From a virus (Duplodnaviria; Heunggongvirae; Uroviricota; Caudoviricetes), in IMG/VR virus record IMGVR_UViG_3300020735_000006, positions 35,950 through 99,949 of that record: a DNA stretch of 64,000 nucleotides, one strand, 5' to 3'. Of this stretch, positions 195-61,643 are shown one piece after another. The translations under genes and the position numbers were made by a program. Below the pieces are notes generated by a model. The model was not told the origin of the DNA, did no database searches, and saw only the letters and a list, made by a program, of their open reading frames with translations. Every line of letters starts with the position of its first letter. Within the stretch, counting starts at the first letter, position 1.

Positions 195-1139
195 ATGAAA
201 AAACTATTAGCAGTATTAGCCGCAGTATTTGCATTAACAGTTAACGCACAATCCAATAAAGAAGTTGTTATTATTACCAGCTTTCCTGTAGGATCTGGCC
301 CGGACAGTTTATTGCGAGAAATACAACCAGATTTACAAAAGATTTACAATGCACCAGTTATCATTGACAACAAACCCGGTGGAAACGGTGCAGTAGCATT
401 TGAAGCATGTAACAGATCAATTGAGTCACAAAAGACTACACTATGTTATACAGAGGCCGCCGTGTTTTGGGCTATTCCTAAAATATATGGCAATGATCGC
501 GTAACAAAGAATCTTAAATTTTTTACAGTTAGCCACTTTGCTCCGTTAGTATTAGTAACGTCGGAAAATGTAAACAATCGCCAAGAGCTCATTGAACATA
601 TTAAGCAGAACCCAAACTTTGGTAGCTGGGCAGTAGGGTCAGTGGGACAGATTACTGGACAAGAACTATCTAACTACTTAAAGATAGATGCCCAACATGT
701 TCCATACAAAGATTATGGTCAGTGGTTAATGGATGTGGCTAATAACAATCTAGGATTTAGTTTTCCTACTATCGGATCAGCTACTCCATTGTATCGTGGC
801 AATAAGATTAAGTTTATAGCAGTAGCAACAAAGCATCGCGACCCTGTGTTTTCGGATGTACCGACTATGGAAGAATACTTCCCGGGGTTAAAGAACTTTG
901 TGCCACTAGGCGCATACGGTGCGTTTTATGTAAACAAAGACATGCCCGCTGCAACTGAAAAAACTTTGTTAGCAGGAATGAAACAAGCATTGGCTAATCC
1001 CAATCTAAGAAGCAGTTTAATTATTCGCGGATATAGACCATGGACAAAGACGGATGCAGAAACAAGAAAAGTATTAGAAGCAGAACAAGAGCATTATTAT
1101 CAAGCTCTTAAGCAGTTTAATATTAATTTACGACAGTGA
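195..1139 (+). CDS. Secreted periplasmic solute-binding protein, TctC/Bug-family-like
   Basis: N-terminal signal peptide MKKLLAVLAAVFALTVNAQ. Segment NKPGGNGAVAFEA resembles the Bug/TctC 'KPGAGG' core. Size ~310 aa, typical of the family. Confidence 0.45.
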   Translation: MKKLLAVLAAVFALTVNAQSNKEVVIITSFPVGSGPDSLLREIQPDLQKIYNAPVIIDNKPGGNGAVAFEACNRSIESQKTTLCYTEAAVFWAIPKIYGNDRVTKNLKFFTVSHFAPLVLVTSENVNNRQELIEHIKQNPNFGSWAVGSVGQITGQELSNYLKIDAQHVPYKDYGQWLMDVANNNLGFSFPTIGSATPLYRGNKIKFIAVATKHRDPVFSDVPTMEEYFPGLKNFVPLGAYGAFYVNKDMPAATEKTLLAGMKQALANPNLRSSLIIRGYRPWTKTDAETRKVLEAEQEHYYQALKQFNINLRQ

Positions 1140-4532: not shown

Positions 4533-5618
4533 ATGTATTATTCTGTAGATAACCAAAAATTTACTAATAAATTCTTAGCGGCATCGTATGCTGGAAAAAA
4601 TAATCTAACTTTACATTTTAACATGTATGAGTCGGCTTTTGACAATATAGATTGGTTAAAAGAACCTATAGAAAGTTGGGATCAGTTACTTGATATGCGA
4701 GCTACCCAAATTGCTGCAAAAAATAAACCCATTGTATTAAATTTTAGCGGTGGAACAGACAGCCTAACAATATACGAAGTTTTTAAACGTAATAATATAC
4801 ATATAGACATTATCTATACAAGAGCACGAGTGGGTGTCAACGACCGTAGTAGTTATTCTCCTGTGTACGACTTCCTTAATAAAGGCGTATACGATAAAAC
4901 TACTAAGATTGTGATTAGAGAAGATAATGCAGAATTATTTAACGAACTATATCCCAATGAGGACTGGGTATGGGACACGGCCCAAAGATATCAATTTGCT
5001 ATGGCACAAGAGTCACGCGAATATTCTAGCCGTATATTAGGTACAGACGATTTTATTTCTGTTATTGGACTTGAAAAACCTCGTTTGCATTTTACTGATG
5101 ATGGGGTATACTCTTACCAAGATGATGAAAACTATGTAAGGCCAATGAATGATAATACATTAGATTGTTTTTACATAACTCCAGATTTGCCAGCATTACA
5201 TGTTAAACAATCGTATATGTTATTAAACTATATAAGAAGGTTGGCACCTAAATCTTCATTAAACGAGTTGGAAAAATTTAACACTATTCACCAACCGTTG
5301 AAATTTAACTGGATTAATTATAGCATAAGTGGGTGTGGTAGATATGGCGACTTAAATGATAGTGCCACTCAACATGCAGGTAATGCTTGTTCAAAATTTA
5401 TTATTCCAACAACTGGACAATTTAGTGGTCAAGAGTATCAAGGTCGTGGTAGCGATTGGTATTCTAGTTTGGCCGGCACACAAGCATTTAAAAACTATAC
5501 ACAAGGGTTAACGAATGTAGTAAATGATTCTGCTGGTAAATTTTTACAGTGGGATCCTACTAATTTTTATTCTATTAAGCAATTCAGATCTAAATATTAT
5601 CAATTAAGTTTTATTTAA
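4533..5618 (+). CDS. PP-loop ATP pyrophosphatase, AsnB/WbuX-like sugar amidotransferase candidate
   Basis: NFSGGTDS matches the SGGxDS PP-loop motif. Size ~360 aa is compatible with N-acetyl-sugar amidotransferase or asparagine-synthase C-domain proteins. Confidence 0.5.
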   Translation: MYYSVDNQKFTNKFLAASYAGKNNLTLHFNMYESAFDNIDWLKEPIESWDQLLDMRATQIAAKNKPIVLNFSGGTDSLTIYEVFKRNNIHIDIIYTRARVGVNDRSSYSPVYDFLNKGVYDKTTKIVIREDNAELFNELYPNEDWVWDTAQRYQFAMAQESREYSSRILGTDDFISVIGLEKPRLHFTDDGVYSYQDDENYVRPMNDNTLDCFYITPDLPALHVKQSYMLLNYIRRLAPKSSLNELEKFNTIHQPLKFNWINYSISGCGRYGDLNDSATQHAGNACSKFIIPTTGQFSGQEYQGRGSDWYSSLAGTQAFKNYTQGLTNVVNDSAGKFLQWDPTNFYSIKQFRSKYYQLSFI

Positions 5619-6498
5619 GTTTGGCTTTCCAAAAACTTGCTATTTTCTCATTGAGTACCTGTGTTTCTTCCCTATTGTAATTTACAGGCACGCATAAATC
5701 TTTAGCATACAGATTTTTAATATTCGGCGAGTTAGCATTAGCACGGTGTAAAATATCATACAACTCGGTTACTTTATCCTGTGCAAGATTAGATGGAGCA
5801 AATATCTGGTATGTTGAGGTTAATTCATTAAATCCATTGTATCCTTGTTTAGCAAAGGTATTTAGATCTTTAGCAGTTCCGGTGTAGCCAATTATATTAA
5901 TTCGATCTTGCCACTGTGTTACATTAGTCGGAACAGCTACATTGAGATCCAATGACGCATTACCTAATAGGTCTTGCATCCCGGCGCTAGTACTAGGATA
6001 GCCAATGAAATCTAATTGTGTATTGGGAAGAATTTTTTGTAATTCTTTAGCTACAGTTTCGCCAGCAGTACCAAGAATTACACCAATTGTTAAACGTTTT
6101 TGTTTTTTTAATTCAGCAGTGGATTTATATTTTGTGCTAACTACAGCATACGGCGAACCTATACATTCTACTAACAGTGGTGTAAATTGTCTAGTATCGT
6201 AACTTTCGTTGGGATATAGCATAGGTCTAATAAAAAATCCGCTAGAAGAACTCATTAATGTAATTCCGCGATTGTTTAATGTATGCAAAGCTGCAACTGT
6301 ACCGCCAGCCCCTGGTTTGTTCTCAAATACAAAAACATATTTTGATTGTGATTTATTGGCTTGGTTAGCCAATTCTCTAACCCATTCGGCACCATTGGCA
6401 CTTACAGCGAATGGCCAAACTAATTGTACTGTTTCTTGTGCTGTTGCTGTATTTACTTTTACAAATAAAAATAAGATTGCGGCAATAATTTTTTTCAT
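5611..6498 (-). CDS. Secreted periplasmic binding protein, TctC/Bug-family-like
   Basis: Signal peptide MKKIIAAILFLFVKVNTATAQ. NKPGAGGTVAA motif. Second member of the family in the window. Confidence 0.5.
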   Translation of the reverse strand: MKKIIAAILFLFVKVNTATAQETVQLVWPFAVSANGAEWVRELANQANKSQSKYVFVFENKPGAGGTVAALHTLNNRGITLMSSSSGFFIRPMLYPNESYDTRQFTPLLVECIGSPYAVVSTKYKSTAELKKQKRLTIGVILGTAGETVAKELQKILPNTQLDFIGYPSTSAGMQDLLGNASLDLNVAVPTNVTQWQDRINIIGYTGTAKDLNTFAKQGYNGFNELTSTYQIFAPSNLAQDKVTELYDILHRANANSPNIKNLYAKDLCVPVNYNREETQVLNEKIASFWKAKLK

Positions 6499-7189: not shown

Positions 7190-8341
7190 ATGACAACATC
7201 AACACTTTATGTCCTTTCCAGAGCCCCGAATGATAAATTTACATACAAGTTATATACTGATTTGTTATCTACACTAACCTGCGACTTTGAGGCATACTAT
7301 ATTTGGTCGGATCCTCCTGCTATACTTAAAAGATTTATGAATTATAAGGTTTTTACAAAACCCAATGTTATTATCGGCGTAAAAGATATGTTGGATTTGT
7401 GGTTAGATCATAATTTTTGGGATGGTAAACCTAGTGCCGGGGTAGAACTAATAGATAATATGGCCGCCCGTTTTCCTGAAACAAATTTTATTATTTTCAC
7501 TAGTCTAGAAAATATTAATCTCGAAGTAATAAAATCTACAAACATACAATTCGTACAATGGGGCGGCGACATAGTAAATCAAGCAGACTCATATCGATAT
7601 GTTATGCCTGTATTGGATAAAAATTTTAATTCCGATAAATCATTTATTAGTTTAAACCGGAATCGTCGACAGCACCGGGTAGTAACGTTAAGTTATCTAT
7701 TTGGTAAAGGGTATAACGAGTACGGCGAAATTACATACCTTGGTCAGTATATAGATGCACAGATTAATAATTTACTCGATTATCTACCTTGGAGATTTGA
7801 AGAACATCAAGATGACGCCCGTACTGCTATGTTGTCTGGATATCCAAAATTTTACAATAATAAATCGTTGGCAGCCGATGATTATAATATCTACGACGAA
7901 ATTAACGATAATGTTACAAACTTTAATCAAAATTTAAGAGAAAGATATCAAAATAGTTTTGTTGAGATTGTATCCGAATCGTCTTTTAGTGCCCCAAGTT
8001 ACTTAATAACAGAGAAATGGTTGAATAGTGTATATGGGTGTAATTTTCCTATCTTACTAAGTGGATGTAGTGCAATCGCCCACTTAAGAGAAGTGGGATT
8101 TGATGTGTTTGATGATATTATTGATCATACGTACGATACTATAGCCAATCCGTTCGATCGTATTATCTCGGCAATTGACAACAACAAAAGATTATTAATA
8201 GATGTAGACTATGCCAAGCAGTTATGGGAAGCTAATACACACAGATTTGAAAAGAACATCGAAGTGGCAAAAACTACAATGTATGATTGGTATAAACATC
8301 GTGCTACTGAACAATTTGCCCAATTGACGTGGAATAATTGA
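7190..8341 (+). CDS. Hypothetical protein (possible glycosyltransferase)
   Basis: 383-aa ORF within the sugar-modification region. No motif recognised. Confidence 0.4.
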   Translation: MTTSTLYVLSRAPNDKFTYKLYTDLLSTLTCDFEAYYIWSDPPAILKRFMNYKVFTKPNVIIGVKDMLDLWLDHNFWDGKPSAGVELIDNMAARFPETNFIIFTSLENINLEVIKSTNIQFVQWGGDIVNQADSYRYVMPVLDKNFNSDKSFISLNRNRRQHRVVTLSYLFGKGYNEYGEITYLGQYIDAQINNLLDYLPWRFEEHQDDARTAMLSGYPKFYNNKSLAADDYNIYDEINDNVTNFNQNLRERYQNSFVEIVSESSFSAPSYLITEKWLNSVYGCNFPILLSGCSAIAHLREVGFDVFDDIIDHTYDTIANPFDRIISAIDNNKRLLIDVDYAKQLWEANTHRFEKNIEVAKTTMYDWYKHRATEQFAQLTWNN

Positions 8342-8396
8342 CATATATAGCAATCTGTGTTAAACTTAGTTTTTACAAATCAACCTTAGGAATAAC

Positions 8397-8627
8397 ATGT
8401 CATCAAAATACCATAGTCGTCACGAACAGTTAGACGTAGAGAAATGCGTAAAAAATGCAGGTGGCAATAAGTTTGAATTAATTATTATGGCTGCACAACG
8501 CGGTCGCGAAATCCGTAGTCAAAATCAACACAGTATCCATATGGAACATCATCATGGTGTTGTTACAGCATTATTGGAAATCCAAGGCGGCAAAGTAGAT
8601 CAAGAGTATTTTAAAAAGATTAAGTAA
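8397..8627 (+). CDS. RNA polymerase omega subunit (RpoZ)-like protein
   Basis: NKFELIIMAAQRGREI aligns with the omega core NRFDLVLVAARRARQM. Downstream VTALLEIQGG resembles VIALREIEEG. Length 76 aa. Confidence 0.5.
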   Translation: MSSKYHSRHEQLDVEKCVKNAGGNKFELIIMAAQRGREIRSQNQHSIHMEHHHGVVTALLEIQGGKVDQEYFKKIK

Positions 8628-8690
8628 CATGTACAAGTATCAATTGTTGGTAACGTATTAAACTATACAAGAATTACTGAGTAGTATACA

Positions 8691-8783
8691 GGAGAGCTGG
8701 CCGAGCGGTCGAAGGCACCCGCCTACTAAGCGGGCATGGATCTTAACAATCCATCTGGGGTTCGAATCCCTAGCTCTCCGCCA
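8691..8783 (+). tRNA. Type II tRNA (Ser-like, long variable arm), apparent anticodon ACU
   Basis: Cloverleaf: acceptor GGAGAGC/GCTCTCC; 3-bp D stem; anticodon stem CCCGC/GCGGG with loop CTACTAA; 21-nt variable arm; T loop TTCGAAT; encoded CCA. Confidence 0.8.
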
Positions 8784-8785
8784 AG

Positions 8786-8805
8786 TACTAATAAGTTTGG
8801 GCATA
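8786..8805. repeat. Left arm of perfect 20-bp inverted repeat (TACTAATAAGTTTGGGCATA)
   Basis: Exact reverse complement of 9025-9044. Confidence 0.9.
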
Positions 8806-9024
8806 TGGCGTGGCGGCCATCTGATACATGTGGGAGTTTGAGTAACAGTCGTAGTACCGGCCCTGTGGCATGAGAATGTAATATCGGGTACTCCCGAGGG
8901 TACAATAAATTTTAAAACTGTGAAAGAGTTGCTAGATTCCATGAAAGAGCCTGTGAAGGCGAGCCTTAATGACTGGGTAGCTCCTGGTTGGCATTGTGGT
9001 CCACTGTCGAAAAGCAGATTTTAG

Positions 9025-9044
9025 TATGCCCAAACTTATTAGTA
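9025..9044. repeat. Right arm of 20-bp inverted repeat
   Basis: TATGCCCAAACTTATTAGTA is the reverse complement of 8786-8805. Confidence 0.9.
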
Positions 9045-9058
9045 ATAAATAGAGATAC

Positions 9059-9132
9059 GCCCCTTTAGTTAAATGGTATAACACTTGATTTGTAATCATG
9101 GATTAGCAGTTCGATTCTGTTAAGGGGCACCA
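9059..9132 (+). tRNA. tRNA-Thr (anticodon UGU)
   Basis: Acceptor GCCCCTT/AAGGGGC; D stem GTTA/TAAC; anticodon loop TTTGTAA; T loop TTCGATT; encoded CCA. Confidence 0.8.
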
Positions 9133-9138
9133 AATTTA

Positions 9139-9438
9139 ATGTCAAAGAAAAAACCCGAACCTATTAAACCAAGAACTACTTGGGGTCAGATGCTAACTAA
9201 AGAAGAATTGTTAGCACTACTAGATAGGATAGAGAAAAAACAACTAGCGAAAAAAGAAATGTCCGAAGAAGCCAAGAAGTCTAAGAATCCTTTTATCAAC
9301 GCCGCCAACGCCGCCAAGGCAGTAGCCGCAAATCCAAAAGTGCCCGGCACTACTACGGCACAAGTGCAAAAAGCTAAATCTACAGCTAAAGTCACTACAA
9401 ACAAACCAGCAAAAAAATCAGCAGGACGTGGTCGTTGA
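9139..9438 (+). CDS. Lys/Ala-rich histone H1-like basic protein
   Basis: 99 aa. C-terminal AKAVAANPKVPGTTTAQVQKAKSTAKVTTNKPAKKSAGRGR is low-complexity KA-rich, as in H1/AlgP-like nucleoid proteins. Confidence 0.5.
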   Translation: MSKKKPEPIKPRTTWGQMLTKEELLALLDRIEKKQLAKKEMSEEAKKSKNPFINAANAAKAVAANPKVPGTTTAQVQKAKSTAKVTTNKPAKKSAGRGR

Positions 9439-9971: not shown

Positions 9972-11141
9972 ATGAAAAAGCTAATTTTAGCTATATTAGC
10001 AGTAACTGGATTTGGTGTAGCACAAGCCCAATCGAGCGTGACCGTATACGGCATCTTGGATGTTGGATACATTGGAAGTAACTACAAGGGAACTGGTACT
10101 TCGGCTACGTCGAAACAAACTACTAGTGCAATTGGCAATAACGGTGAATCTACTTCACGTTTAGGTTTCAAAGGCCAAGAAGATTTAGGTGGCGGAACTT
10201 CTGCTCTCTTTACCTTTGAAACTGGAATCAATCCGGCAGATAGTACATTATCTACATTTAATACACGTCAAGCATTTGTCGGTATTAAACAATCTGGATT
10301 AGGTCAAGTATTAGTAGGTACACAAAATACACCAATCTTTAATGCTGTTCAAATTACCGATCCGGGTAATGCAAACAACATGCTTGGTAATGCTATCTAT
10401 TCCACAAGCCCACAAGCCAACGGCAACGCTGGTACTGCACCGTATGCTGGTACTAGTTCAAGTGCTGGCGCAAGTGATGCATTTACATTGCGTACTTCGA
10501 ACGCAGTTAGTGTAACTTCGGAAAAGTTTGCTGGATTTAGCGGCACAGGTTTGTTAACTCAAAATAATCAAAATAATACACAAACAAGTCCTACCGAAGG
10601 TGGTCAAAATAACCACAGTGGTTGGGGCCTTGGCGTAAATTACGAGTGGCAAAAATTGTATTTGACAGCTAACTATCAAGCTCTTAAGAGTTTACAGTCG
10701 GCGGCTACTTTAACTAGTCCAACTCCAGCTATCTGGAATACAACTAGTGGTGGTACAAATACACAAGACAATCAAACATACGTTGCTGCAACATATGACT
10801 TTGGTATCTTGAAAGCCTATGCTCAATATGTAAACCGCAAGGCTACTGATACATTGAACACAGGTTACTATGCTCAACGTAAAGCTGAACAAATTGGTGT
10901 ACGTGGTTTTATTACTCCAACTATTGAAGCTTGGGTATCTGGCGGTTTAGGTAAAGTAACAGCGTTTGGCCAAGGTCAACCGTCTGCTAATTTCACCGCA
11001 TATCAGTTAGGAAGCAATTACTATCTAAGCAAGCGTACAAACTTGTATGCAATCTTTGGTTCAACACAAACTGCAAGTACATCAACTAATAGTGGTGTAT
11101 CTGGTAACAGTTATGGTTTAGGTGTACGTCATACGTTCTAA
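9972..11141 (+). CDS. Outer-membrane porin (Gram-negative general porin family)
   Basis: Signal peptide MKKLILAILAVTGFGVAQAQ. N-terminal SVTVYGILDVGY. Gly/Thr/Ser/Asn-rich beta-strand composition. C-terminal Phe (…GVRHTF). Confidence 0.7.
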   Translation: MKKLILAILAVTGFGVAQAQSSVTVYGILDVGYIGSNYKGTGTSATSKQTTSAIGNNGESTSRLGFKGQEDLGGGTSALFTFETGINPADSTLSTFNTRQAFVGIKQSGLGQVLVGTQNTPIFNAVQITDPGNANNMLGNAIYSTSPQANGNAGTAPYAGTSSSAGASDAFTLRTSNAVSVTSEKFAGFSGTGLLTQNNQNNTQTSPTEGGQNNHSGWGLGVNYEWQKLYLTANYQALKSLQSAATLTSPTPAIWNTTSGGTNTQDNQTYVAATYDFGILKAYAQYVNRKATDTLNTGYYAQRKAEQIGVRGFITPTIEAWVSGGLGKVTAFGQGQPSANFTAYQLGSNYYLSKRTNLYAIFGSTQTASTSTNSGVSGNSYGLGVRHTF

Positions 11142-11201: not shown

Positions 11202-11750
11202 ATGAAGAAATTATTATTAGTATTAGCATTAGTAGCATCATCTGCATTTGCGTCAGACAACTGGCAAAATGGTGATGGTACTTTAAATTGGAAAAACGGT
11301 GACGGCAAATTATGCTGGCGTGATAATTCATGGACTCCGGCCACAGCCGCACCAGGATGCGATGGATGGATTGCCCCTAAGGTAAACACAGTGACTTCCA
11401 CTAAGGTCACACTACAAGCCGACACATTGTTTAACTTTGATAAGTCAGTATTAAAGCCAGAAGGTTTTGCTGTTTTGGATAACCTGGTCGGGCAAGTAAG
11501 TGGCGTTAAAGTAGAAGTAATCGTTGCAGTTGGTAATACTGACAGTATTGGTACCGATGCTTATAACCAAGCACTTGGTCAACGTCGGGCTAATGCGGTG
11601 AAGGTATACTTAGTTAGCGAAGGTTTACCTGCTGACAAGATCTACACCGAATCAAAAGGCAAATCTAATCCTGTAGCAAGTAACGCTACAGCAGAAGGTC
11701 GTAGCCAAAACCGCCGTGTTGATATTGAAGTAGTTGGTACACAAAAGTAA
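11202..11750 (+). CDS. OmpA-family protein (C-terminal peptidoglycan-binding OmpA domain)
   Basis: Signal peptide. N-terminal NWQNGDG/NWKNGDG repeat. C-terminal NFDKSVLKPEG…GNTDSIGTDAYNQALGQRRANAVKVYL…NRRVDIEV is an OmpA_C-like signature. Confidence 0.8.
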   Translation: MKKLLLVLALVASSAFASDNWQNGDGTLNWKNGDGKLCWRDNSWTPATAAPGCDGWIAPKVNTVTSTKVTLQADTLFNFDKSVLKPEGFAVLDNLVGQVSGVKVEVIVAVGNTDSIGTDAYNQALGQRRANAVKVYLVSEGLPADKIYTESKGKSNPVASNATAEGRSQNRRVDIEVVGTQK

Positions 11751-16006: not shown

Positions 16007-16310
16007 CATGACACGTGGATGGTTCATCGGCGACTTTGAACCTAGTGTAATGCGTACTCCTTTGTTTGAAGTGGGCGTACTTACACACTTAAAGGGCGAA
16101 GTTTGGCCCGCACACTATCACAAACATGCTACAGAATACAATGTATTATTATCAGGAAGTATGCGTATTGCCGGAGAAGTTATTAGCGTAGGCGATATCT
16201 TTTGGTTTGAGCCCGAGGATGTTGCTGATCCAGAATTTTTAGAAGATTGTAAAGTCTTGTGCGTTAAACGCCCGAGTATAATTGGAGACAAGTATGAAGT
16301 TTTACCGTAA
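15984..16310 (+). CDS. Cupin-domain protein (possible NDP-sugar isomerase/epimerase)
   Basis: HYHKHATEYNVLLSG fits cupin motif 1, G(x)5HxH(x)3-4E(x)6G. Confidence 0.5.
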   Translation: MKTAKLSDMTRGWFIGDFEPSVMRTPLFEVGVLTHLKGEVWPAHYHKHATEYNVLLSGSMRIAGEVISVGDIFWFEPEDVADPEFLEDCKVLCVKRPSIIGDKYEVLP

Positions 16311-17487
16311 CCGTAGTGAAATAGATCCGAACAAATATCTTGTTGCTACTTATGCAATGACGAGTAGCACAAGTCTTGACGATGCTGCTTGGAACTTAGC
16401 TATCGGACAAAGTGTAGGTAATCCTAATGTACGCAACGAGTGGGAAACAGATGAACTGTTTGAAAATCACAGTTGTATTATACTTGCAGACAAAGCAGAG
16501 TTAGCACAAACAAAAGCAGGTACAGTTGAAATTGCGTTCCCTGTGGCAAACACAGATTGGGAATCAGATGGTATTAATCATTTAATTTGTCAGTTAATGG
16601 GTGGACATGTAGACATTGATTGTGTAACAGGATGTAGACTAATTAAACTAGAACTTCCGGAAACTGTAACTAAGCACTTCCTAGGTCCTAAGTTCGGTCT
16701 TACAGGAATTCGAGAATTTACAGGTCAATACAACAAGCCCCTGTTTGGTAGCATTGTTAAACCTAAAATTGGCATTACACCAGAAGTAATGTTAGAGATG
16801 GTTAAACAAATGGTTGACGGTGGTGCCGACTTTATCAAAGAAGATGAGATTATGTCAAACCCTGCGTGTGCTCCATTAGAACGCAGAGTAGAATTAGTTG
16901 CCAACTACCTAGCTAAACAAAGCCGTAAGGTTGTGTTTTGCCATACTATTAACTGTGATCCACATGTATTAGTTGAACGTGTTAAGCGTGTAGCAGAACT
17001 AGGTGGTAATGGAGTACATACAAACGTATTTTCAGGATTAGGTACTTACAACTCTATTCGTAAATTAGACTTGCCACTGTTCTTACACTTCCAGAAGTCT
17101 GGCGACAAACTAATGACTGATGCCAAACATCGTTTTAGTATTGCTTGGCCTGTTGTATGCCAACTTGCTACCTTAATGGGTGTTGACACAATCCAAACAG
17201 GTATGATGGGCGGATATAGTAATGACGATCCTGCAGAGTTAGCAGAAAGCATTAAGGTGTTACGTGAAGGTAATACATTGCCTGTATTAAGCTGTGGATT
17301 CCATCCTGGACTGGTAGAAAAGATTACAGCATTAGCTGGCAATGATTATATGGCCAATGTAGGCGGAGCAGTACACGGGCATCCAGGCGGTACAGTTGCA
17401 GGTGCACGTGCTATGCGTCAAGCAATTGACAAGACTTATGGTCCAGAATATGATGAAGCAATCGCAAAATGGGGATTAGTAAAATGA
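16282..17487 (+). CDS. RuBisCO large-subunit-like protein (form IV RLP)
   Basis: VKPKIGIT aligns with KPKLGLS. GGADFIKEDE aligns with GGLDFTKDDE. LPVLSCGFH…GGAVHGHPGG aligns with LPVASGGIH…GGGTLGHPWG. The HIHRA motif is replaced by HFQKS. Confidence 0.75.
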   Translation: METSMKFYRNRSEIDPNKYLVATYAMTSSTSLDDAAWNLAIGQSVGNPNVRNEWETDELFENHSCIILADKAELAQTKAGTVEIAFPVANTDWESDGINHLICQLMGGHVDIDCVTGCRLIKLELPETVTKHFLGPKFGLTGIREFTGQYNKPLFGSIVKPKIGITPEVMLEMVKQMVDGGADFIKEDEIMSNPACAPLERRVELVANYLAKQSRKVVFCHTINCDPHVLVERVKRVAELGGNGVHTNVFSGLGTYNSIRKLDLPLFLHFQKSGDKLMTDAKHRFSIAWPVVCQLATLMGVDTIQTGMMGGYSNDDPAELAESIKVLREGNTLPVLSCGFHPGLVEKITALAGNDYMANVGGAVHGHPGGTVAGARAMRQAIDKTYGPEYDEAIAKWGLVK

Positions 17488-25100: not shown

Positions 25101-27031
<1,931 letters not shown>

Positions 27032-47977: not shown

Positions 47978-47982
47978 ATCCA

Positions 47983-47990
47983 TATAAATA
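47983..47990 (+). promoter_or_regulatory. TATAAATA box (T4-late-promoter-like)
   Basis: Exact TATAAATA 21 nt upstream of the TTG-initiated ORF at 48011. Confidence 0.35.
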
Positions 47991-48010
47991 CAACATAACT
48001 GGAGCATACC

Positions 48011-48259
48011 TTGCAAAAGAAGGCCCGTAGCATATTAGACGAACTAGACACGTTGCTAGTACACAAAGATCGTGAGAATCTTGTGGAAAGCCGTGCCTCC
48101 AACGTAATCGCTGGAGCAATCAATCTAATCAATTATATACGTGAAAATTACGATGCCGAACAAGCAGGAGAGCTGGAACGCCGATTAATCAATTCAATCC
48201 GTACCCAAGAGCCAGAGAAATTTAAACGTGGTGTACGGAGAATGAAAAGTGAAGATTAA
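48011..48259 (+). CDS. Hypothetical small protein (TTG start)
   Basis: 82-aa ORF with GGAG RBS 8 nt upstream of TTG. Confidence 0.35.
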   Translation: MQKKARSILDELDTLLVHKDRENLVESRASNVIAGAINLINYIRENYDAEQAGELERRLINSIRTQEPEKFKRGVRRMKSED

Positions 48260-48899
48260 CGAGGTTATTGTAGAAGCATTAAACACAGATACTGGCACAC
48301 CTAATCCATCGGTATTTAAACCAAATCCTGCGCGAACCATACCACACCCAAAACTACAACAAAAGCCAACTTTATGGAATAAAATTAAAGCAGGAGCTAA
48401 AAGTTTTGTACAACCCGATGCCCAAGACACACAAAATACAAAAACAGAAGTTACAGCTCAACGATCTTCGCAACCTTGGATACGTTTATGGAATAGTAAA
48501 ATAGCAAAAAATCCAAGTCTTGCACAAAATCCAACAGAGTTATTAGCTTTCGCTAAAACAATTTTTGGAAATAGAATTCCTGTAGACCAAATTCCTGCAC
48601 CAACTGATATGAGTAGTGCAGGTGTTTCACAGTATATAACAAAATTAACTGATACATTTATGCAAACTCCAATACTTAAACAGACTCAGACACCAGGTGC
48701 ACAAGATCAACCGACAAAAAGTAGTCGTTTACTTGATCCAGAAGTAGATGTTATCAGCGCAAGGAATCCAATTGTTTTAAAATTTAATGGTAAACGATAC
48801 ACTCGACAACCAAATGGTGAATGGTCTAAATTAGGACAAACAAAACCGATTGATCTTCCTATGCAACAGTTTTTAAATAAAGAATTAGCAAAATTATGA
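48249..48899 (+). CDS. Hypothetical Pro/Gln-rich protein
   Basis: 216-aa ORF. Confidence 0.45.
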   Translation: MKINEVIVEALNTDTGTPNPSVFKPNPARTIPHPKLQQKPTLWNKIKAGAKSFVQPDAQDTQNTKTEVTAQRSSQPWIRLWNSKIAKNPSLAQNPTELLAFAKTIFGNRIPVDQIPAPTDMSSAGVSQYITKLTDTFMQTPILKQTQTPGAQDQPTKSSRLLDPEVDVISARNPIVLKFNGKRYTRQPNGEWSKLGQTKPIDLPMQQFLNKELAKL

Positions 48900-58626: not shown

Positions 58627-60948
58627 ATGACGACAATTCAAGTCACAAAAAGAAACGGACAAAAAGAGCCGTTAGCAGTAGAAAAGTGGCAGGCACAAAT
58701 TACAAAGGTGTGCAGTGGCATAGCAGATGTAAGTCAATCCATGATTGAAATCAAAAGTCAGCCGCACTTTTTTGATGGCATTACAACAAAAGAAATAGAT
58801 GAAATTACATTACGAGCGATTGTAGACTTAATCGACGTAGAAGCAAATCCCGATGTCGGACACGTTAACTATCAATACGTAGCAGGCAAACAGCGTTTGT
58901 CAATGTTACGTAAGGATGTTTATGGCAACTACGAGCCTCCTCGCCTGTATGACATTGTTAAAACAAATGTAGCCACAGGTCTTTACACAGATGAATTATT
59001 ATCTTGGTACACTGAAGAAGAGTGGGACAAGATGGATGCTATGTTAGATCATAGCAAAGATGAACTATACAGTTATGCCGCTATTGAACAGCTAATTGAA
59101 AAATACCTAGTACGTAATCGCGCTACAAAGGAAACATATGAAACTCCACAAATTCGTTACATGGTTGCAGCCGCTACTGTGTTCCACAAAGAAGAACCTA
59201 GTAGTGCCCGCTTGCGTTACATTAAAGAGTACTACAATGCAGCAAGCGATGGCTTATTTACTCTTGCTACTCCTGTGCTTGCTGGACTGGGAACCCCTAC
59301 TAAGCAATTTTCAAGTTGTGTGCTTATCCGCAGCGACGATGATTTGGATTCTATATTTGCCTCAGGTGAGATGATGGCCAAGTATGCCAGTAAACGTGCA
59401 GGCATTGGTTTAGAAATTGGTCGGTTACGTCCTTTGGGATCGCCTATCCGTGGCGGCGAAATTATGCACACTGGCATGATTCCATTCTTAAAGAAATGGT
59501 TTGGTGATTTACGTTCATGTTCACAAGGTGGCATTCGTAATGCTAGTGCTACAGTATTTTACCCTATTTGGCATCATCAGTTTGATGACCTAATTGTATT
59601 GAAGAACAATCAAGGTACAGACGAAACACGTGTACGCTTTATGGACTATGGTGTTGTACTAAGTGCATTGTTCTGGCGTCGTTTCAAGAACAAAGAAAAC
59701 ATTACCTTCTTTGATCCAAATGAAGTTCCTGATTTGTATCAAGCGTTCTATAGTAATATTGAACTGTTTGAAGACTTATATGTCAAGTACGAAAAGCGTA
59801 CAGACCTGCGTAAGAAAACAATGTCGGCAGAAGAAGTATTCAAAGGCGGCATACTAAAAGAACGTACAGACACAGGACGTATCTATCTTGTGTTCATTGA
59901 TAATGTACAAAAGCAAGGACCGTTTGATCCAGAGTATCATACTATCTATCAATCGAACTTGTGCTGTGAAATTTTATTACCAACTAAATCCTTTAAACGC
60001 TTAGATGACGAAGAAGGCCGCATTGCATTGTGTACACTAGGCAGTATTAACTGGGGTGCTTTCCGTAACCCAGAAGATATGCGCCGTGCGTGTCGCATCT
60101 TACATCGCAGTCTTAACAATATTTTGGATTATCAAGACTTCTTGTCAATTCAAAGTAAACTAAGCAACGACGAAATTCGTCCGTTGGGTATTGGTATTAC
60201 TAACTTGGCTTATTGGCATGCTAAACGCAGTTATAAGTATGGAGAGAAAGATGCTCTACATGATGTTAAATCATGGATGGAACACCAAGCCTACTACCTA
60301 ACTGAAGCTAGTGTCGAGTTAGCCAAGGAACGTGGCGCTTGTGTAGATTCTGCTCGAACACGTTATGGCCAAGGCGTCTTCCCGTGGGAGTTACGTGCCG
60401 AGGGTGTAAATCAATTAACAGACTTTACTCCTGAGTTAGATTGGGAAACACTAAGAACCAACATGAAACAATATGGTGTGCGTAATGCCACCCAGATGGC
60501 AGTTGCCCCAGTTGAGTCCAGTAGTGTTGTAATTAATTCTACCAACGGTATTGAAATGCCAATGAGTTTAATTAGTACCAAAGAATCAAAAGCAGGTTCA
60601 CTTACACAAGTTGTTCCTGAATATGCTAAACTTAAAAACAAATATCAATTGATGTGGGAACAAAAAGACTGTGCGGCATACTTAAAGACAGCGGCAGTTA
60701 TTGCGGCCTATGTTGATCAGAGCATAAGTACTAATACATTCTATTCGCCGAAGCATTTTCCGAACCGCAAAGTACCTGCGACACTGATTGCTAAGAATTT
60801 AATGCAAGCACAAATGTGGGGGCTTAAGACATTTTACTACTCACTAATTGATAAACAAGGAGCAAAAGCAGAAGCCGAAGAAGCTCCTGTTATGTTAGAA
60901 GAGATTGATTTTGATAATGAAGAAGATTGTATCGCCTGTAAATTATAA
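58627..60948 (+). CDS. nrdA: Ribonucleoside-diphosphate reductase alpha subunit (class Ia), with ATP-cone
   Basis: N-terminal ATP-cone (VTKRNGQKEPLAVEKWQAQI). Active-site region NLCCEI. C-terminal CIACKL cysteine pair. 773 aa. Confidence 0.9.
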   Translation: MTTIQVTKRNGQKEPLAVEKWQAQITKVCSGIADVSQSMIEIKSQPHFFDGITTKEIDEITLRAIVDLIDVEANPDVGHVNYQYVAGKQRLSMLRKDVYGNYEPPRLYDIVKTNVATGLYTDELLSWYTEEEWDKMDAMLDHSKDELYSYAAIEQLIEKYLVRNRATKETYETPQIRYMVAAATVFHKEEPSSARLRYIKEYYNAASDGLFTLATPVLAGLGTPTKQFSSCVLIRSDDDLDSIFASGEMMAKYASKRAGIGLEIGRLRPLGSPIRGGEIMHTGMIPFLKKWFGDLRSCSQGGIRNASATVFYPIWHHQFDDLIVLKNNQGTDETRVRFMDYGVVLSALFWRRFKNKENITFFDPNEVPDLYQAFYSNIELFEDLYVKYEKRTDLRKKTMSAEEVFKGGILKERTDTGRIYLVFIDNVQKQGPFDPEYHTIYQSNLCCEILLPTKSFKRLDDEEGRIALCTLGSINWGAFRNPEDMRRACRILHRSLNNILDYQDFLSIQSKLSNDEIRPLGIGITNLAYWHAKRSYKYGEKDALHDVKSWMEHQAYYLTEASVELAKERGACVDSARTRYGQGVFPWELRAEGVNQLTDFTPELDWETLRTNMKQYGVRNATQMAVAPVESSSVVINSTNGIEMPMSLISTKESKAGSLTQVVPEYAKLKNKYQLMWEQKDCAAYLKTAAVIAAYVDQSISTNTFYSPKHFPNRKVPATLIAKNLMQAQMWGLKTFYYSLIDKQGAKAEAEEAPVMLEEIDFDNEEDCIACKL

Positions 60949-61643
60949 TGAACTATCAACTAATTTATAATAATCTAATAGACCGTGCAATAACACGCAT
61001 AAACGAGGGATATGTTGAAAAACATCATATTGTTCCTCGTTGTTTGGGTGGCACTGATGTTAAAAACAATATTGTAAGTTTATATCCTGAAGAACATTAT
61101 TTGGCCCACTTACTATTATGTAAGATACATAAAGGCAATGCAAAGCTATTATATGCCGCATTAAATATGACGTCAGGGTCAATGATTAACAACGGTAAAC
61201 GTAACAATAAAGCCTATGGATGGTTGCGTAGACAATATTCTGAATCTATGTCCGGTGATAACAATCCTAATAGACGTAATCCAGAAATACAAAAGAAAGC
61301 GGCATTAAAACGTACTGGGCAAAAACGCACAGAAGAAACAAAGGCAAGAATGTCTGCGGCCCAAAAGGGCAGAACATTTTCTGAAGAAACTAAAAAGAAA
61401 ATGTCTGAGGCGGTTAAAAATAGACCCCCTATATCAGATGAAACAAGAAAGAAACTCTCGGAAAGTTCCGCCGGAAGAATCGGCCCGTGGGCAGGAAAAA
61501 CAATGTCAGCAGAGATAAAGGCTAAAATGTCTGCTTCTCGAACAGGCAAAAAGATGTCCGAGGAAGCAAAAGCAAAAATGAGAGTTGCTGCAAAAATTAG
61601 AGAAGAAAATAAACGTAAACAAAGAGAAAACAACCATGAGTAA
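60948..61643 (+). CDS. HNH homing endonuclease with NUMOD3 repeats
   Basis: HHIVPRCLGGTDVKNNIVSLYPEEHYLAH is an HNH motif. Five C-terminal repeats (e.g. SEETKKKMSEAVKNR) match NUMOD3 DNA-binding motifs. Confidence 0.8.
   Translation: MNYQLIYNNLIDRAITRINEGYVEKHHIVPRCLGGTDVKNNIVSLYPEEHYLAHLLLCKIHKGNAKLLYAALNMTSGSMINNGKRNNKAYGWLRRQYSESMSGDNNPNRRNPEIQKKAALKRTGQKRTEETKARMSAAQKGRTFSEETKKKMSEAVKNRPPISDETRKKLSESSAGRIGPWAGKTMSAEIKAKMSASRTGKKMSEEAKAKMRVAAKIREENKRKQRENNHE

What the first reader, a model, noticed from the sequence alone, without database searches (positions are those of the whole stretch)
8784..9058. 219-nt element closed by a perfect 20-bp inverted repeat, sandwiched between two tRNA genes
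TACTAATAAGTTTGGGCATA (8786-8805) is exactly complementary to 9025-9044. The arms begin 2 nt after the CCA of the upstream tRNA and end 14 nt before the downstream tRNA. The interior has no plausible ORF. The only ORF called there runs antisense across the tRNAs. It contains local hairpins. The arrangement resembles the stable small RNAs co-transcribed in the T4 tRNA cluster, but it could also be a degenerate intron or mobile-element relic.
Basis: seen in the sequence. Interest (0 to 1): 0.65.

Follow-up and report, generated by a model that had tools for sequence, protein, structure and literature searches.

The report
New structured RNA in jumbo-phage tRNA clusters
The inverted repeat is the closing stem of a roughly 259-nt, 13-helix non-coding RNA gene that is conserved in a clade of uncultured jumbo phages, sits among their tRNA genes, and matches no described RNA family.

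Summary
A perfect 20-bp inverted repeat (8786-8805 / 9025-9044) lies between tRNA-Ser(ACU) and tRNA-Thr(UGU).

It is not a mobile-element or intron relic. It is helix P1 of a conserved RNA gene on the + strand. I found 29 distinct homologues, all on metagenomic contigs of large phages distantly related to PA5oct and Atu_ph07.

- **Structure:** they share 13 nested helices (75 base pairs). 54 pairs show compensatory changes. 96% of cells are paired, against about 41% when partners are slid. G-U outnumbers A-C 234 to 13, which fixes the strand.
- **Not coding:** no reading frame is conserved.
- **Expression signals:** copies not fused to an upstream tRNA carry a sigma-70-like promoter ending 6-9 nt before P1. 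Many copies abut a tRNA at one or both ends.
- **Known families:** no Rfam family matches at E<=10. T4 rnaC/rnaD do not match the covariance model. No GenBank phage has it.

Best reading: a new class of stable, intricately folded, trans-acting RNA, released from tRNA-cluster transcripts by tRNA-processing nucleases. It belongs with T4 species 1/2, GOLLD and ROOL in kind, but is unrelated in sequence and fold. Its molecular function is not established.

The parts
8786..9044 (+). The whole RNA gene (259 nt): a 13-helix structured non-coding RNA
   Evidence: Covariance model R1 scores 307.8 bits on 8779-9052 + and nothing comparable on the - strand. The family alignment A4 has 28 members.
8786..8806 (+). 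P1, 5' strand (the left arm of the inverted repeat plus one U-G pair)
   Evidence: Pairs with 9024-9044. 15 of 19 modelled pairs show compensatory changes across the family.
9024..9044 (+). P1, 3' strand (the right arm of the inverted repeat)
8807..8818 (+). P2 hairpin, GGC-GUGGCG-GCC
   Evidence: All 3 pairs co-vary (GC to AU, UA to CG). The loop keeps U-G-x-C.
8819..8823 (+). P3, 5' strand AUCUG (pairs with 9015-9019 CAGAU)
   Evidence: 100% paired in 28 sequences, 2 pairs with compensatory change.
9015..9019 (+). P3, 3' strand CAGAU
8826..8833 (+). P4, 5' strand ACA(U)GUGG with bulged U8829 (pairs with 9001-9007 CCACUGU)
   Evidence: The pair at A8828-U9005 takes 5 standard pair types (UA, AU, CG, UG, GC); the rest is invariant.
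9001..9014 (+). P4 3' strand (9001-9007) and the near-invariant 7-nt internal loop CGAAAAG (9008-9014)
   Evidence: GUCC.C.GU.G.AAAGCAG is conserved in all 28 members. This motif retrieved 14 new members from IMG/VR.
8835..8849 (+). P5 (8835-8839), internal-loop strand GAGUA (8840-8844) and P6 (8845-8849), 5' strands
   Evidence: The P5 pair U8838-A8927 takes all four Watson-Crick types. All 5 P6 pairs co-vary. AGUA is near-invariant.
8917..8930 (+). P6 3' strand (8917-8921), internal-loop strand GAAA (8922-8925), P5 3' strand (8926-8930)
   Evidence: By sequence, AGUA opposite GAA resembles a sarcin-ricin / loop-E module. This is recalled from memory and not tested.
8860..8901 (+). P7 three-way junction: P7 8860-8863/8898-8901, P7a hairpin 8868-8879 (GAGA loop), P7b hairpin 8884-8897 (UCGGG-UACU-CCCGA)
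   Evidence: P7, P7a and P7b all show compensatory changes. The P7b stem is otherwise invariant.
8902..8916 (+). Junction J7/6 with the near-invariant AUUUUAAA
   Evidence: Conservation line of the family alignment. No covarying partner was found.
8939..8999 (+). P10 domain: P10 8939-8944/8994-8999, P8 hairpin 8949-8960 (GNRA-type loop GUGA), P9a 8963-8965/8990-8992, P9 hairpin 8971-8989
   Evidence: All four helices show compensatory changes; all 6 P9 pairs co-vary.
8691..8783 (+). tRNA-Ser(ACU), 2 nt upstream. It is the presumed source of the element's transcription, and its 3' maturation would define the element's 5' end
   Evidence: The same fusion 2-8 nt after a tRNA-Ser occurs in L006, L035, L079, L001, L021, L027 and L057.
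9059..9132 (+). tRNA-Thr(UGU), 14 nt downstream. RNase P cleavage at its 5' end would define the element's 3' tail
   Evidence: A tRNA follows P1 within 4-25 nt in 11 other members.
8338..8366 (+). Candidate sigma-70-type promoter (TTGACA-17-TAAACT, TG-extended) for the unit: omega-like gene, tRNA-Ser, element, tRNA-Thr
   Evidence: Consensus scan gives 10 of 12 matches. This is a pattern match only.

Best explanation
The element is a stand-alone gene for a roughly 259-nt, highly structured non-coding RNA, and it belongs to a previously undescribed family confined to one clade of uncultured jumbo phages.

Shown:
- It is conserved.
- It is read from the + strand.
- It folds into 13 nested helices. 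A 21-bp terminal stem P1 is followed by P3 and P4 and opens into a three-way junction. One arm holds P5, P6 and P7; the other holds P10, P8 and P9.
- Junction and internal-loop nucleotides are near-invariant.

Inferred maturation: in this window it is transcribed with the omega-like gene and tRNA-Ser. It is freed when the tRNAs are matured. 3' processing of tRNA-Ser would set its 5' end, and RNase P cleavage of tRNA-Thr would leave a 14-nt tail that exonucleases trim back to P1. In relatives that lack the upstream tRNA, a promoter ending 6-9 nt before P1 does the same job. P1 either shields both ends from exonucleases or serves as an RNase III-type excision stem, as in rRNA operons.

Inferred function, with low certainty: the mature RNA acts in trans through its folded core, as a binding platform or decoy for a host or phage protein of the tRNA/translation apparatus. 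It probably does not act by antisense pairing or as a cis-regulator.
For: - **Conservation:** 29 distinct homologues were found through neighbouring-gene look-ups and two motif scans.
- **Structure from a sequence-only MAFFT alignment:** 66 predicted pairs, 33 with compensatory changes. For the 75-pair model on that alignment, 95.2% of cells are paired against 36-42% when slid, and 37 pairs have double changes. No shuffle of 500 reached the observed value on four of the five measures; on the fifth (further pair types) 6 of 500 did.
- **Structure on the model-fitted 28-sequence alignment:** 96.3% paired against 34-41% slid, 54 of 75 pairs with double changes, 0 of 500 shuffles on every measure.
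- **Strand:** 234 G-U/U-G cells against 13 A-C/C-A. Reverse-strand model scores are 17-27 bits against 116-308 forward.
- **Not coding:**
- **Own promoters:** TTGACA-17-TATAAT (12 of 12) ends 11 nt before P1 in L023. TTGACA-17-TATACT (11 of 12) ends 7 nt before P1 in L029. Similar boxes are seen by eye in L040, L043, L044, L051, L033, L046, L076/77/87, L080 and L054/75.
- **tRNA fusion at either end:**
- **Precedent for the kind:** T4 rnaC/rnaD lie in the T4 tRNA cluster. GOLLD and ROOL are phage RNAs often near tRNA islands, with unknown function (read; PMC7567579; PMC9241854).
Against: - There are no expression data: every member is a metagenomic contig, so a stable transcript and its ends are not shown.
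- The members are related. Most are 75-90% identical, so compensatory 'cells' are not independent events, and the shuffle control ignores phylogeny.
- The 28-sequence alignment was fitted to the model.
- No partner protein was found. Pfam and PHROG scans of 49 window ORFs gave nothing obviously RNA-binding nearby.
- Ten members sit just upstream of a DctP gene, which leaves some room for a cis role.
- The sarcin-ricin and GNRA assignments are sequence resemblances only.
Confidence: 0.6

Rival explanations
1. It is a purely cis-acting processing or spacer module of the tRNA transcript. The long P1 duplex would be an RNase III-type cleavage site, or an exonuclease barrier, that separates and stabilises neighbouring tRNA precursors. 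The excised RNA would have no function of its own.
For: It lies between or beside tRNAs in most members. P1 is an uninterrupted duplex of 17-19 modelled pairs in all 28 members. That is about the length RNase III needs, by established knowledge of rRNA processing stems.
Against: A spacer needs only the stem. Here about 215 nt of interior hold 12 further helices with compensatory changes and near-invariant junctions. Several copies are free-standing between protein genes with their own promoter and no adjacent tRNA: L029, L033, L046, L076/77/87.
Confidence: 0.12
2. It is a ribozyme, either self-processing or acting on tRNA precursors (an RNase P-like or repair-type activity supplied by the phage for its 20-30 tRNAs).
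For: It has a complex multi-junction fold with GNRA-type loops and many invariant unpaired nucleotides, which is typical of large ribozymes. It is constantly associated with tRNA arrays.
Against: No match at E<=10 to any of the 4227 families of Rfam 15, a library I take from memory (not checked) to include RNase P, group I/II introns and the self-cleaving ribozymes. No P4-like pseudoknot or any other long-range covarying pair lies outside the nested helices. No cleavage site can be inferred from sequence.
Confidence: 0.1
3. It is an RNA-polymerase-binding RNA in the manner of 6S RNA, working with the phage-encoded omega subunit next to it.
For: A 76-aa RNA polymerase omega homologue (PF01192, 32 bits) lies 160 nt upstream in the window and close by in L001, L035, L043 and L044. 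The RNA has a long terminal duplex.
Against: There is no 6S match in Rfam. The interior is a branched junction, not a central bubble between two long helices. In most relatives the omega gene is fused directly to the dCMP deaminase gene and the RNA lies kilobases away: L021, L023, L027, L029, L032.
Confidence: 0.04
4. It is a cis-regulatory leader (riboswitch-like) of the downstream gene.
For: In L001, L021, L027, L029 and L032-34 the element ends 33-100 nt before a DctP (TRAP solute-binding) gene.
Against: In the window and 11 other members the next gene is a tRNA. P1 closes the whole fold, with no alternative terminator or RBS-sequestering hairpin. At 259 nt with 13 helices it is far beyond usual leaders.
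Confidence: 0.03
5. It is a relic of a mobile element (a MITE with 20-bp terminal inverted repeats) or of a degenerate intron.
For: A perfect terminal inverted repeat and no ORF.
Against: It is single-copy in the window and in every locus. There is no flanking direct repeat: the flanks are AG and AT. The arms change in a compensatory way and tolerate G-U but not A-C. The interior is more conserved than the neighbouring coding DNA: 86-89% against 75-84%. There is no intron model match, and the flanking tRNAs are intact.
Confidence: 0.01

Closest known systems
Phage T4 species 1 and species 2 RNAs (rnaC, rnaD)
   Same: They are small RNAs without an ORF, encoded on the tRNA strand inside a phage tRNA cluster and abutting a tRNA (T4 annotation). 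By established knowledge they are cut from the tRNA precursor transcripts, and their function is still unknown.
   Different: They are 139 and 119 nt against 259 nt. There is no detectable homology: the family model gives below 4 bits over rnaC/rnaD. T4-like GenBank phages have no blastn match.
GOLLD and ROOL large ornate RNAs
   Same: They are phage or prophage encoded and often next to tRNA islands. They have elaborate covariation-supported folds, no known partner protein and unknown function (read; PMC7567579).
   Different: They are about 600-800 nt with pseudoknots and assemble into homo-oligomeric cages (read). Here the RNA is 259-290 nt and fully nested, with no pseudoknot detected. There is no Rfam match. 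The host phage clade is different.
rRNA-operon processing stems (RNase III substrates)
   Same: A duplex of about 20 bp, formed by the sequences flanking a structured RNA, brings its two ends together inside a polycistronic transcript that also carries tRNAs. This rests on established knowledge; P1 is shown.
   Different: Cleavage of P1 by RNase III is not shown. The enclosed RNA is not ribosomal RNA.
6S RNA
   Same: A stable RNA of similar size whose 5' and 3' ends pair in a long closing helix.
   Different: No Rfam 6S match, and a branched interior instead of a central bubble.

Membership tests
Conserved structured non-coding RNA (generic) | Base pairs kept by compensatory substitutions across homologues, above controls | tested here: met
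   54 of 75 pairs have double changes. 96.3% of cells are paired against 34-41% slid, with 0 of 500 shuffles reaching that. The result holds on a sequence-only alignment.
Conserved structured non-coding RNA (generic) | No conserved reading frame | tested here: met
   All six frames are interrupted in some member, and there is no codon periodicity.
Conserved structured non-coding RNA (generic) | A discrete transcript is made | not testable with these tools
   Only indirect evidence: consensus promoters end 6-11 nt before P1 in free-standing copies.
T4 species 1 / species 2 RNAs | Encoded in a phage tRNA cluster on the tRNA strand, abutting tRNAs | tested here: met
T4 species 1 / species 2 RNAs | Sequence and structure homology to rnaC or rnaD | tested here: not met
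   A filter-off search of the T4 region with model R1 gives below 4 bits over rnaC/rnaD.
GOLLD / ROOL | Match to the curated covariance models | tested here: not met
   No Rfam hit at E<=10 on the element. At the gathering score, nothing except tRNA was found in eight related loci.
GOLLD / ROOL | Phage-encoded, near tRNA islands | tested here: met
GOLLD / ROOL | Homo-oligomeric RNA-only assembly | not testable with these tools
   Needs cryo-EM or native gels. I saw no conserved palindromic loop in the alignment.
Group I / group II intron | Match to intron covariance models | tested here: not met
   No hit at E<=10.
Group I / group II intron | Interrupts a gene whose exons join into a functional product | tested here: not met
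   Both flanking tRNAs are complete: 51 and 64 bits against the tRNA model. Other copies stand alone behind a promoter.
MITE / insertion-sequence relic | Multiple dispersed copies | tested here: not met
   One copy in 64 kb and one per related locus.
MITE / insertion-sequence relic | Target-site duplication flanking the terminal repeats | tested here: not met
   The flanks are AG and AT in the window. No consistent duplication appears in 28 members.
tmRNA, RNase P RNA, 6S RNA, SRP RNA, Y RNA | Match to ARAGORN tmRNA search or to the Rfam models | tested here: not met
   ARAGORN finds only two tRNAs. Rfam gives no hit at E<=10 on the element alone, where filters are laxest.
Retron msr-msd RNA | Adjacent reverse transcriptase gene | tested here: not met
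   There is no RT domain among neighbours in the window or in the gene tables of 20 related loci.

The most novel reading that the evidence does not exclude
The RNA is the core of a new catalytic or self-assembling machine. It could be a phage-encoded ribozyme or RNP that acts on the phage's own tRNA precursors or on the host translation apparatus. Alternatively it could be an RNA-only assembly in the manner of ROOL and GOLLD but built from a much smaller unit. Its many invariant junction nucleotides, GNRA-type loops and sarcin-ricin-like internal loop are what one sees in such RNAs, and nothing found here excludes it.
Probability: 0.12. Interest if true: 0.85.

Novelty: new variant of a known kind. 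Interest (0 to 1): 0.6.

Why it matters
RNAs over 200 nt with this many conserved helices and invariant unpaired nucleotides are rare. In the past they have turned out to be ribozymes, riboswitches or cores of RNPs.

Phage tRNA islands already harbour three unexplained RNA classes: T4 species 1/2, GOLLD and ROOL. A fourth, unrelated and compact class in jumbo phages strengthens the case that tRNA islands carry a recurrent RNA-based function that is not yet understood.

At about 260 nt it is small enough for chemical probing, crystallography or cryo-EM, and pull-downs. The alignment and model built here make the family directly searchable.

Tried and rejected
- **Rfam:** whole window at gathering score, then 8500-9300, the element alone and the L006 copy at E<=10. 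Only the two tRNAs and noise were found. Eight related loci gave only tRNAs.
- **GenBank phages:** blastn at E<=1e-5 and E<=10 matched only the flanking tRNAs.
- **First exact-pattern scans:** they found the same two variants, or nothing.
- **Bacterial genome scans:** the first exact 20-mer scan found nothing. The degenerate 3' motif scan gave only chance hits, none of which nhmmer confirmed.
- **Second IMG/VR motif scan:** it added one member.
- **Pseudoknot search:** covariation among unpaired columns showed nothing beyond G-U artefacts.
- **Single-sequence minimum-energy fold:** its interior and the 3-sequence consensus were superseded by the 15- and 28-sequence consensus.
- **Candidate partner proteins:** Pfam and PHROG scans of 49 window ORFs found nothing RNA-related next to the element.
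- **IMG/VR catalogue of 10,006 candidate structured RNAs (PMC10690425):** no supplementary tables are held, so prior listing cannot be excluded.
- **A 2026 preprint on coevolutionary mining of non-coding elements:** it could not be opened.

Full report
**1. The observation**

The repeat finder gives arms 8786-8805 and 9025-9044, 20 nt, 100% complementary and 219 nt apart. ARAGORN and the Rfam tRNA model place tRNA-Ser(ACT) at 8691-8783 and tRNA-Thr(TGT) at 9059-9132. The spacings of 2 nt and 14 nt are therefore as stated.

With up to 3 mismatches the 20-mer occurs only at these two places. The expected count is 0.03, and 0 of 100 shuffles reached 2. No other part of the element recurs in the window. 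The only ORFs over it are a 45-codon frame that begins inside tRNA-Ser and two antisense frames that cross the tRNAs.

**2. Known families**

Rfam 15 (4227 models) finds only the two tRNAs in the window at gathering score. At E<=10 it finds nothing in the element. This held when 8500-9300 was searched, when the element alone was searched, and when a homologue was searched. ARAGORN finds no tmRNA. GenBank phages (50,697 records) match only the tRNAs.

**3. Homologues**

The 76-aa ORF upstream (8397-8627) is an RNA polymerase omega homologue (PF01192). Its relatives in IMG/VR gave a first homologous locus, in which the element again follows tRNA-Ser(ACT). A motif scan gave a second variant between tRNA-Ser(GCT) and tRNA-Thr.

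The omega family has 32 protein clusters. Looking up their contigs and scanning them with nhmmer gave 12 more variants. Two of these (L023, L040) are divergent.

A degenerate scan for the invariant 3' motif GTCCNCNGTYGNAAAGCAG in IMG/VR added 14. A scan for the 5' motif added one. Of the two bacterial genome scans, the first exact 20-mer scan found nothing.

All members lie on phage-like contigs of up to 357 kb. The window's DnaB helicase is 45-46% identical to those of the jumbo phages PA5oct and Atu_ph07.

**4. Structure**

RNAalifold on a sequence-only MAFFT alignment of 15 members predicts 66 pairs, 33 with compensatory changes. I added P10 and P9a, which were seen in the 3-sequence consensus. 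I then built covariance model R1 with 275 positions and 75 pairs. It recovers 28 distinct members at 116-308 bits; reverse strands score 17-27 bits.

| Measure | Model-fitted alignment, 28 sequences | Sequence-only alignment, 15 sequences |
|---|---|---|
| Cells forming a standard pair | 96.3% | 95.2% |
| Same, with partners slid 1-3 columns | 34-41% | 36-42% |
| Pairs with changes on both sides | 54 of 75 | 37 of 75 |
| Shuffles (of 500) reaching the observed value | 0 on all five measures | 0 on four measures, 6 on further pair types |

G-U/U-G cells outnumber A-C/C-A cells 234 to 13, which fixes the + strand as the RNA. No frame is conserved, and there is no codon periodicity.

A search for covarying pairs among unpaired columns found no pseudoknot.

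**5. Anatomy in the window**

| Helix | 5' strand | 3' strand |
|---|---|---|
| P1 | 8786-8806 | 9024-9044 |
| P2 hairpin | 8807-8809 | 8816-8818 |
| P3 | 8819-8823 | 9015-9019 |
| P4 (U8829 bulged) | 8826-8833 | 9001-9007 |
| P5 | 8835-8839 | 8926-8930 |
| P6 | 8845-8849 | 8917-8921 |
| P7 | 8860-8863 | 8898-8901 |
| P7a hairpin | 8868-8870 | 8877-8879 |
| P7b hairpin | 8884-8888 | 8893-8897 |
| P10 | 8939-8944 | 8994-8999 |
| P8 hairpin | 8949-8952 | 8957-8960 |
| P9a | 8963-8965 | 8990-8992 |
| P9 hairpin | 8971-8976 | 8984-8989 |

P1, P3 and P4 share one continuous 3' strand. They open into a three-way junction formed by P4, P5 and P10.

Near-invariant unpaired stretches are:
- CUGAUAC and GUGG.AG, which run over P3, J3/4 and P4
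- AGUA opposite GAA, between P5 and P6
- AUUUUAAA
- AGAU
- GUCC.C.GU.G.AAAGCAG

AGUA opposite GAA is the sequence signature of a sarcin-ricin / loop-E module, and the P8 loop is GNGA. Both are resemblances I recall from memory, not tests.

The covariation-supported fold (-67.9 kcal/mol) is not the single-sequence minimum (-87.2). The first-stage 'local hairpins' and one search should therefore not be taken as the structure.

**6. Expression signals and context**

There are three arrangements.

- **(a) 2-8 nt after a tRNA-Ser, with no promoter of its own:** window, L006, L035, L079, L001, L021, L027, L057.
- **(b) Behind a sigma-70-type promoter:** L023 has TTGACA-17-TATAAT (12 of 12), L029 has TTGACA-17-TATACT (11 of 12), and similar boxes are seen by eye in L040, L043, L044, L051, L033, L046, L076/77/87, L080 and L054/75. 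The -10 box ends 6-9 nt before P1 in most of these and 11 nt in L023.
- **(c) A tRNA follows P1 within 4-25 nt:** tRNA-Thr in window, L006, L035, L043, L044 and L051; tRNA-Met in L023; tRNA-Leu in L040, L054, L060, L075 and L089.

Some copies have no adjacent tRNA at all (L029, L033, L046, L076/77/87). The RNA is therefore a self-contained gene, and its ends coincide with P1 however it is transcribed.

In the window, a promoter-like site at 8338-8366 precedes the omega gene. The omega gene is not a constant neighbour. In most relatives it is fused to the dCMP deaminase gene and the RNA lies elsewhere.

**7. Mechanism**

Three things are shown: a conserved, strand-specific, non-coding, intricately folded RNA gene.

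Three things are inferred from established tRNA-operon biology:
- release by 3' maturation of tRNA-Ser upstream and RNase P cleavage downstream;
- trimming back to P1;
- P1 acting as an end-protecting or RNase III-type stem.

The function is inferred with low certainty: trans action through the folded core as a protein-binding platform or decoy, linked to tRNA or translation take-over.

Rivals are a pure processing spacer, a ribozyme, a 6S-like RNA, a leader of DctP, and a mobile-element or intron relic. They are weighed in the rival list. The last is effectively excluded.

**8. Comparison with what is known**

In kind, it joins T4 species 1/2 RNAs, GOLLD and ROOL (read; PMC7567579; PMC9241854). 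It is not a member of any of them. Model R1 does not match T4 rnaC/rnaD, and the Rfam models do not match it.

It may be listed anonymously among the 10,006 IMG/VR candidates of PMC10690425, which I could not check.

**Verdict:** a real feature and a new RNA class of a known general kind. Its function is unknown, but the class is tractable.

Noticed in passing
window 8691-8783; also L001, L021, L027, L033, L035, L040, L041, L043, L044, L051, L076, L077, L079: The tRNA-Ser upstream of the element has anticodon ACU. An A at position 34 is unusual for a bacterial-type tRNA-Ser. Sister phages (L006, L029, L046, L054, L057, L060) carry the normal GCU at the equivalent gene.
   Followed up: partly
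window 8397-8627 (+): A phage-encoded homologue of the RNA polymerase omega subunit (PF01192, 32 bits against a cut-off of 26). It has 32 related clusters in metagenomes, and tblastn finds none in 50,697 GenBank phage records.
   Followed up: partly
L023 2812-2870, L021 3603-3654, L029 9239-9297, L001 2520-2572, L057 1329-1387, L051 4205-4373 (-): A second conserved non-coding element (AGUCUUGGACACGCAGACUUUAAAGCGAGGUGGGAGUAGGUGGAAGCCCUAC) lies close to a gene end in these loci; in L023 and L021 that gene is the phosphoesterase (phrog_547). It is 90-100% identical across phages and has a compensatory change in its first hairpin. It was not found in the window.
   Followed up: partly
window 195-1139, 5611-6498 (-), 9972-11141, 11202-11750, 16294-17487, 25409-27031: There are host-like auxiliary genes: two TctC solute receptors, a porin, an OmpA-family protein, a RuBisCO-large-subunit-like protein and a GroEL chaperonin.
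   Followed up: no
window 9139-9438 (+): A basic, low-complexity 99-aa ORF directly follows tRNA-Thr. The same gene follows tRNA-Thr in L043 (79% identity), and an ORF of similar size does so in L044. It has no Pfam or PHROG match.
   Followed up: partly
window 60948-61643 (+): A NUMOD3-motif (homing-endonuclease-type) ORF lies immediately after the ribonucleotide reductase large subunit gene at 58627-60948.
   Followed up: no
window 47978-48608: A 632-nt stretch without an ORF follows the DnaB helicase gene, in a region of high AT skew. Only two short two-copy direct repeats were found.
   Followed up: partly
L036 10412-10576: One related contig has a scaffold gap (a run of N) inside the element, so that copy is unusable.
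   Followed up: yes
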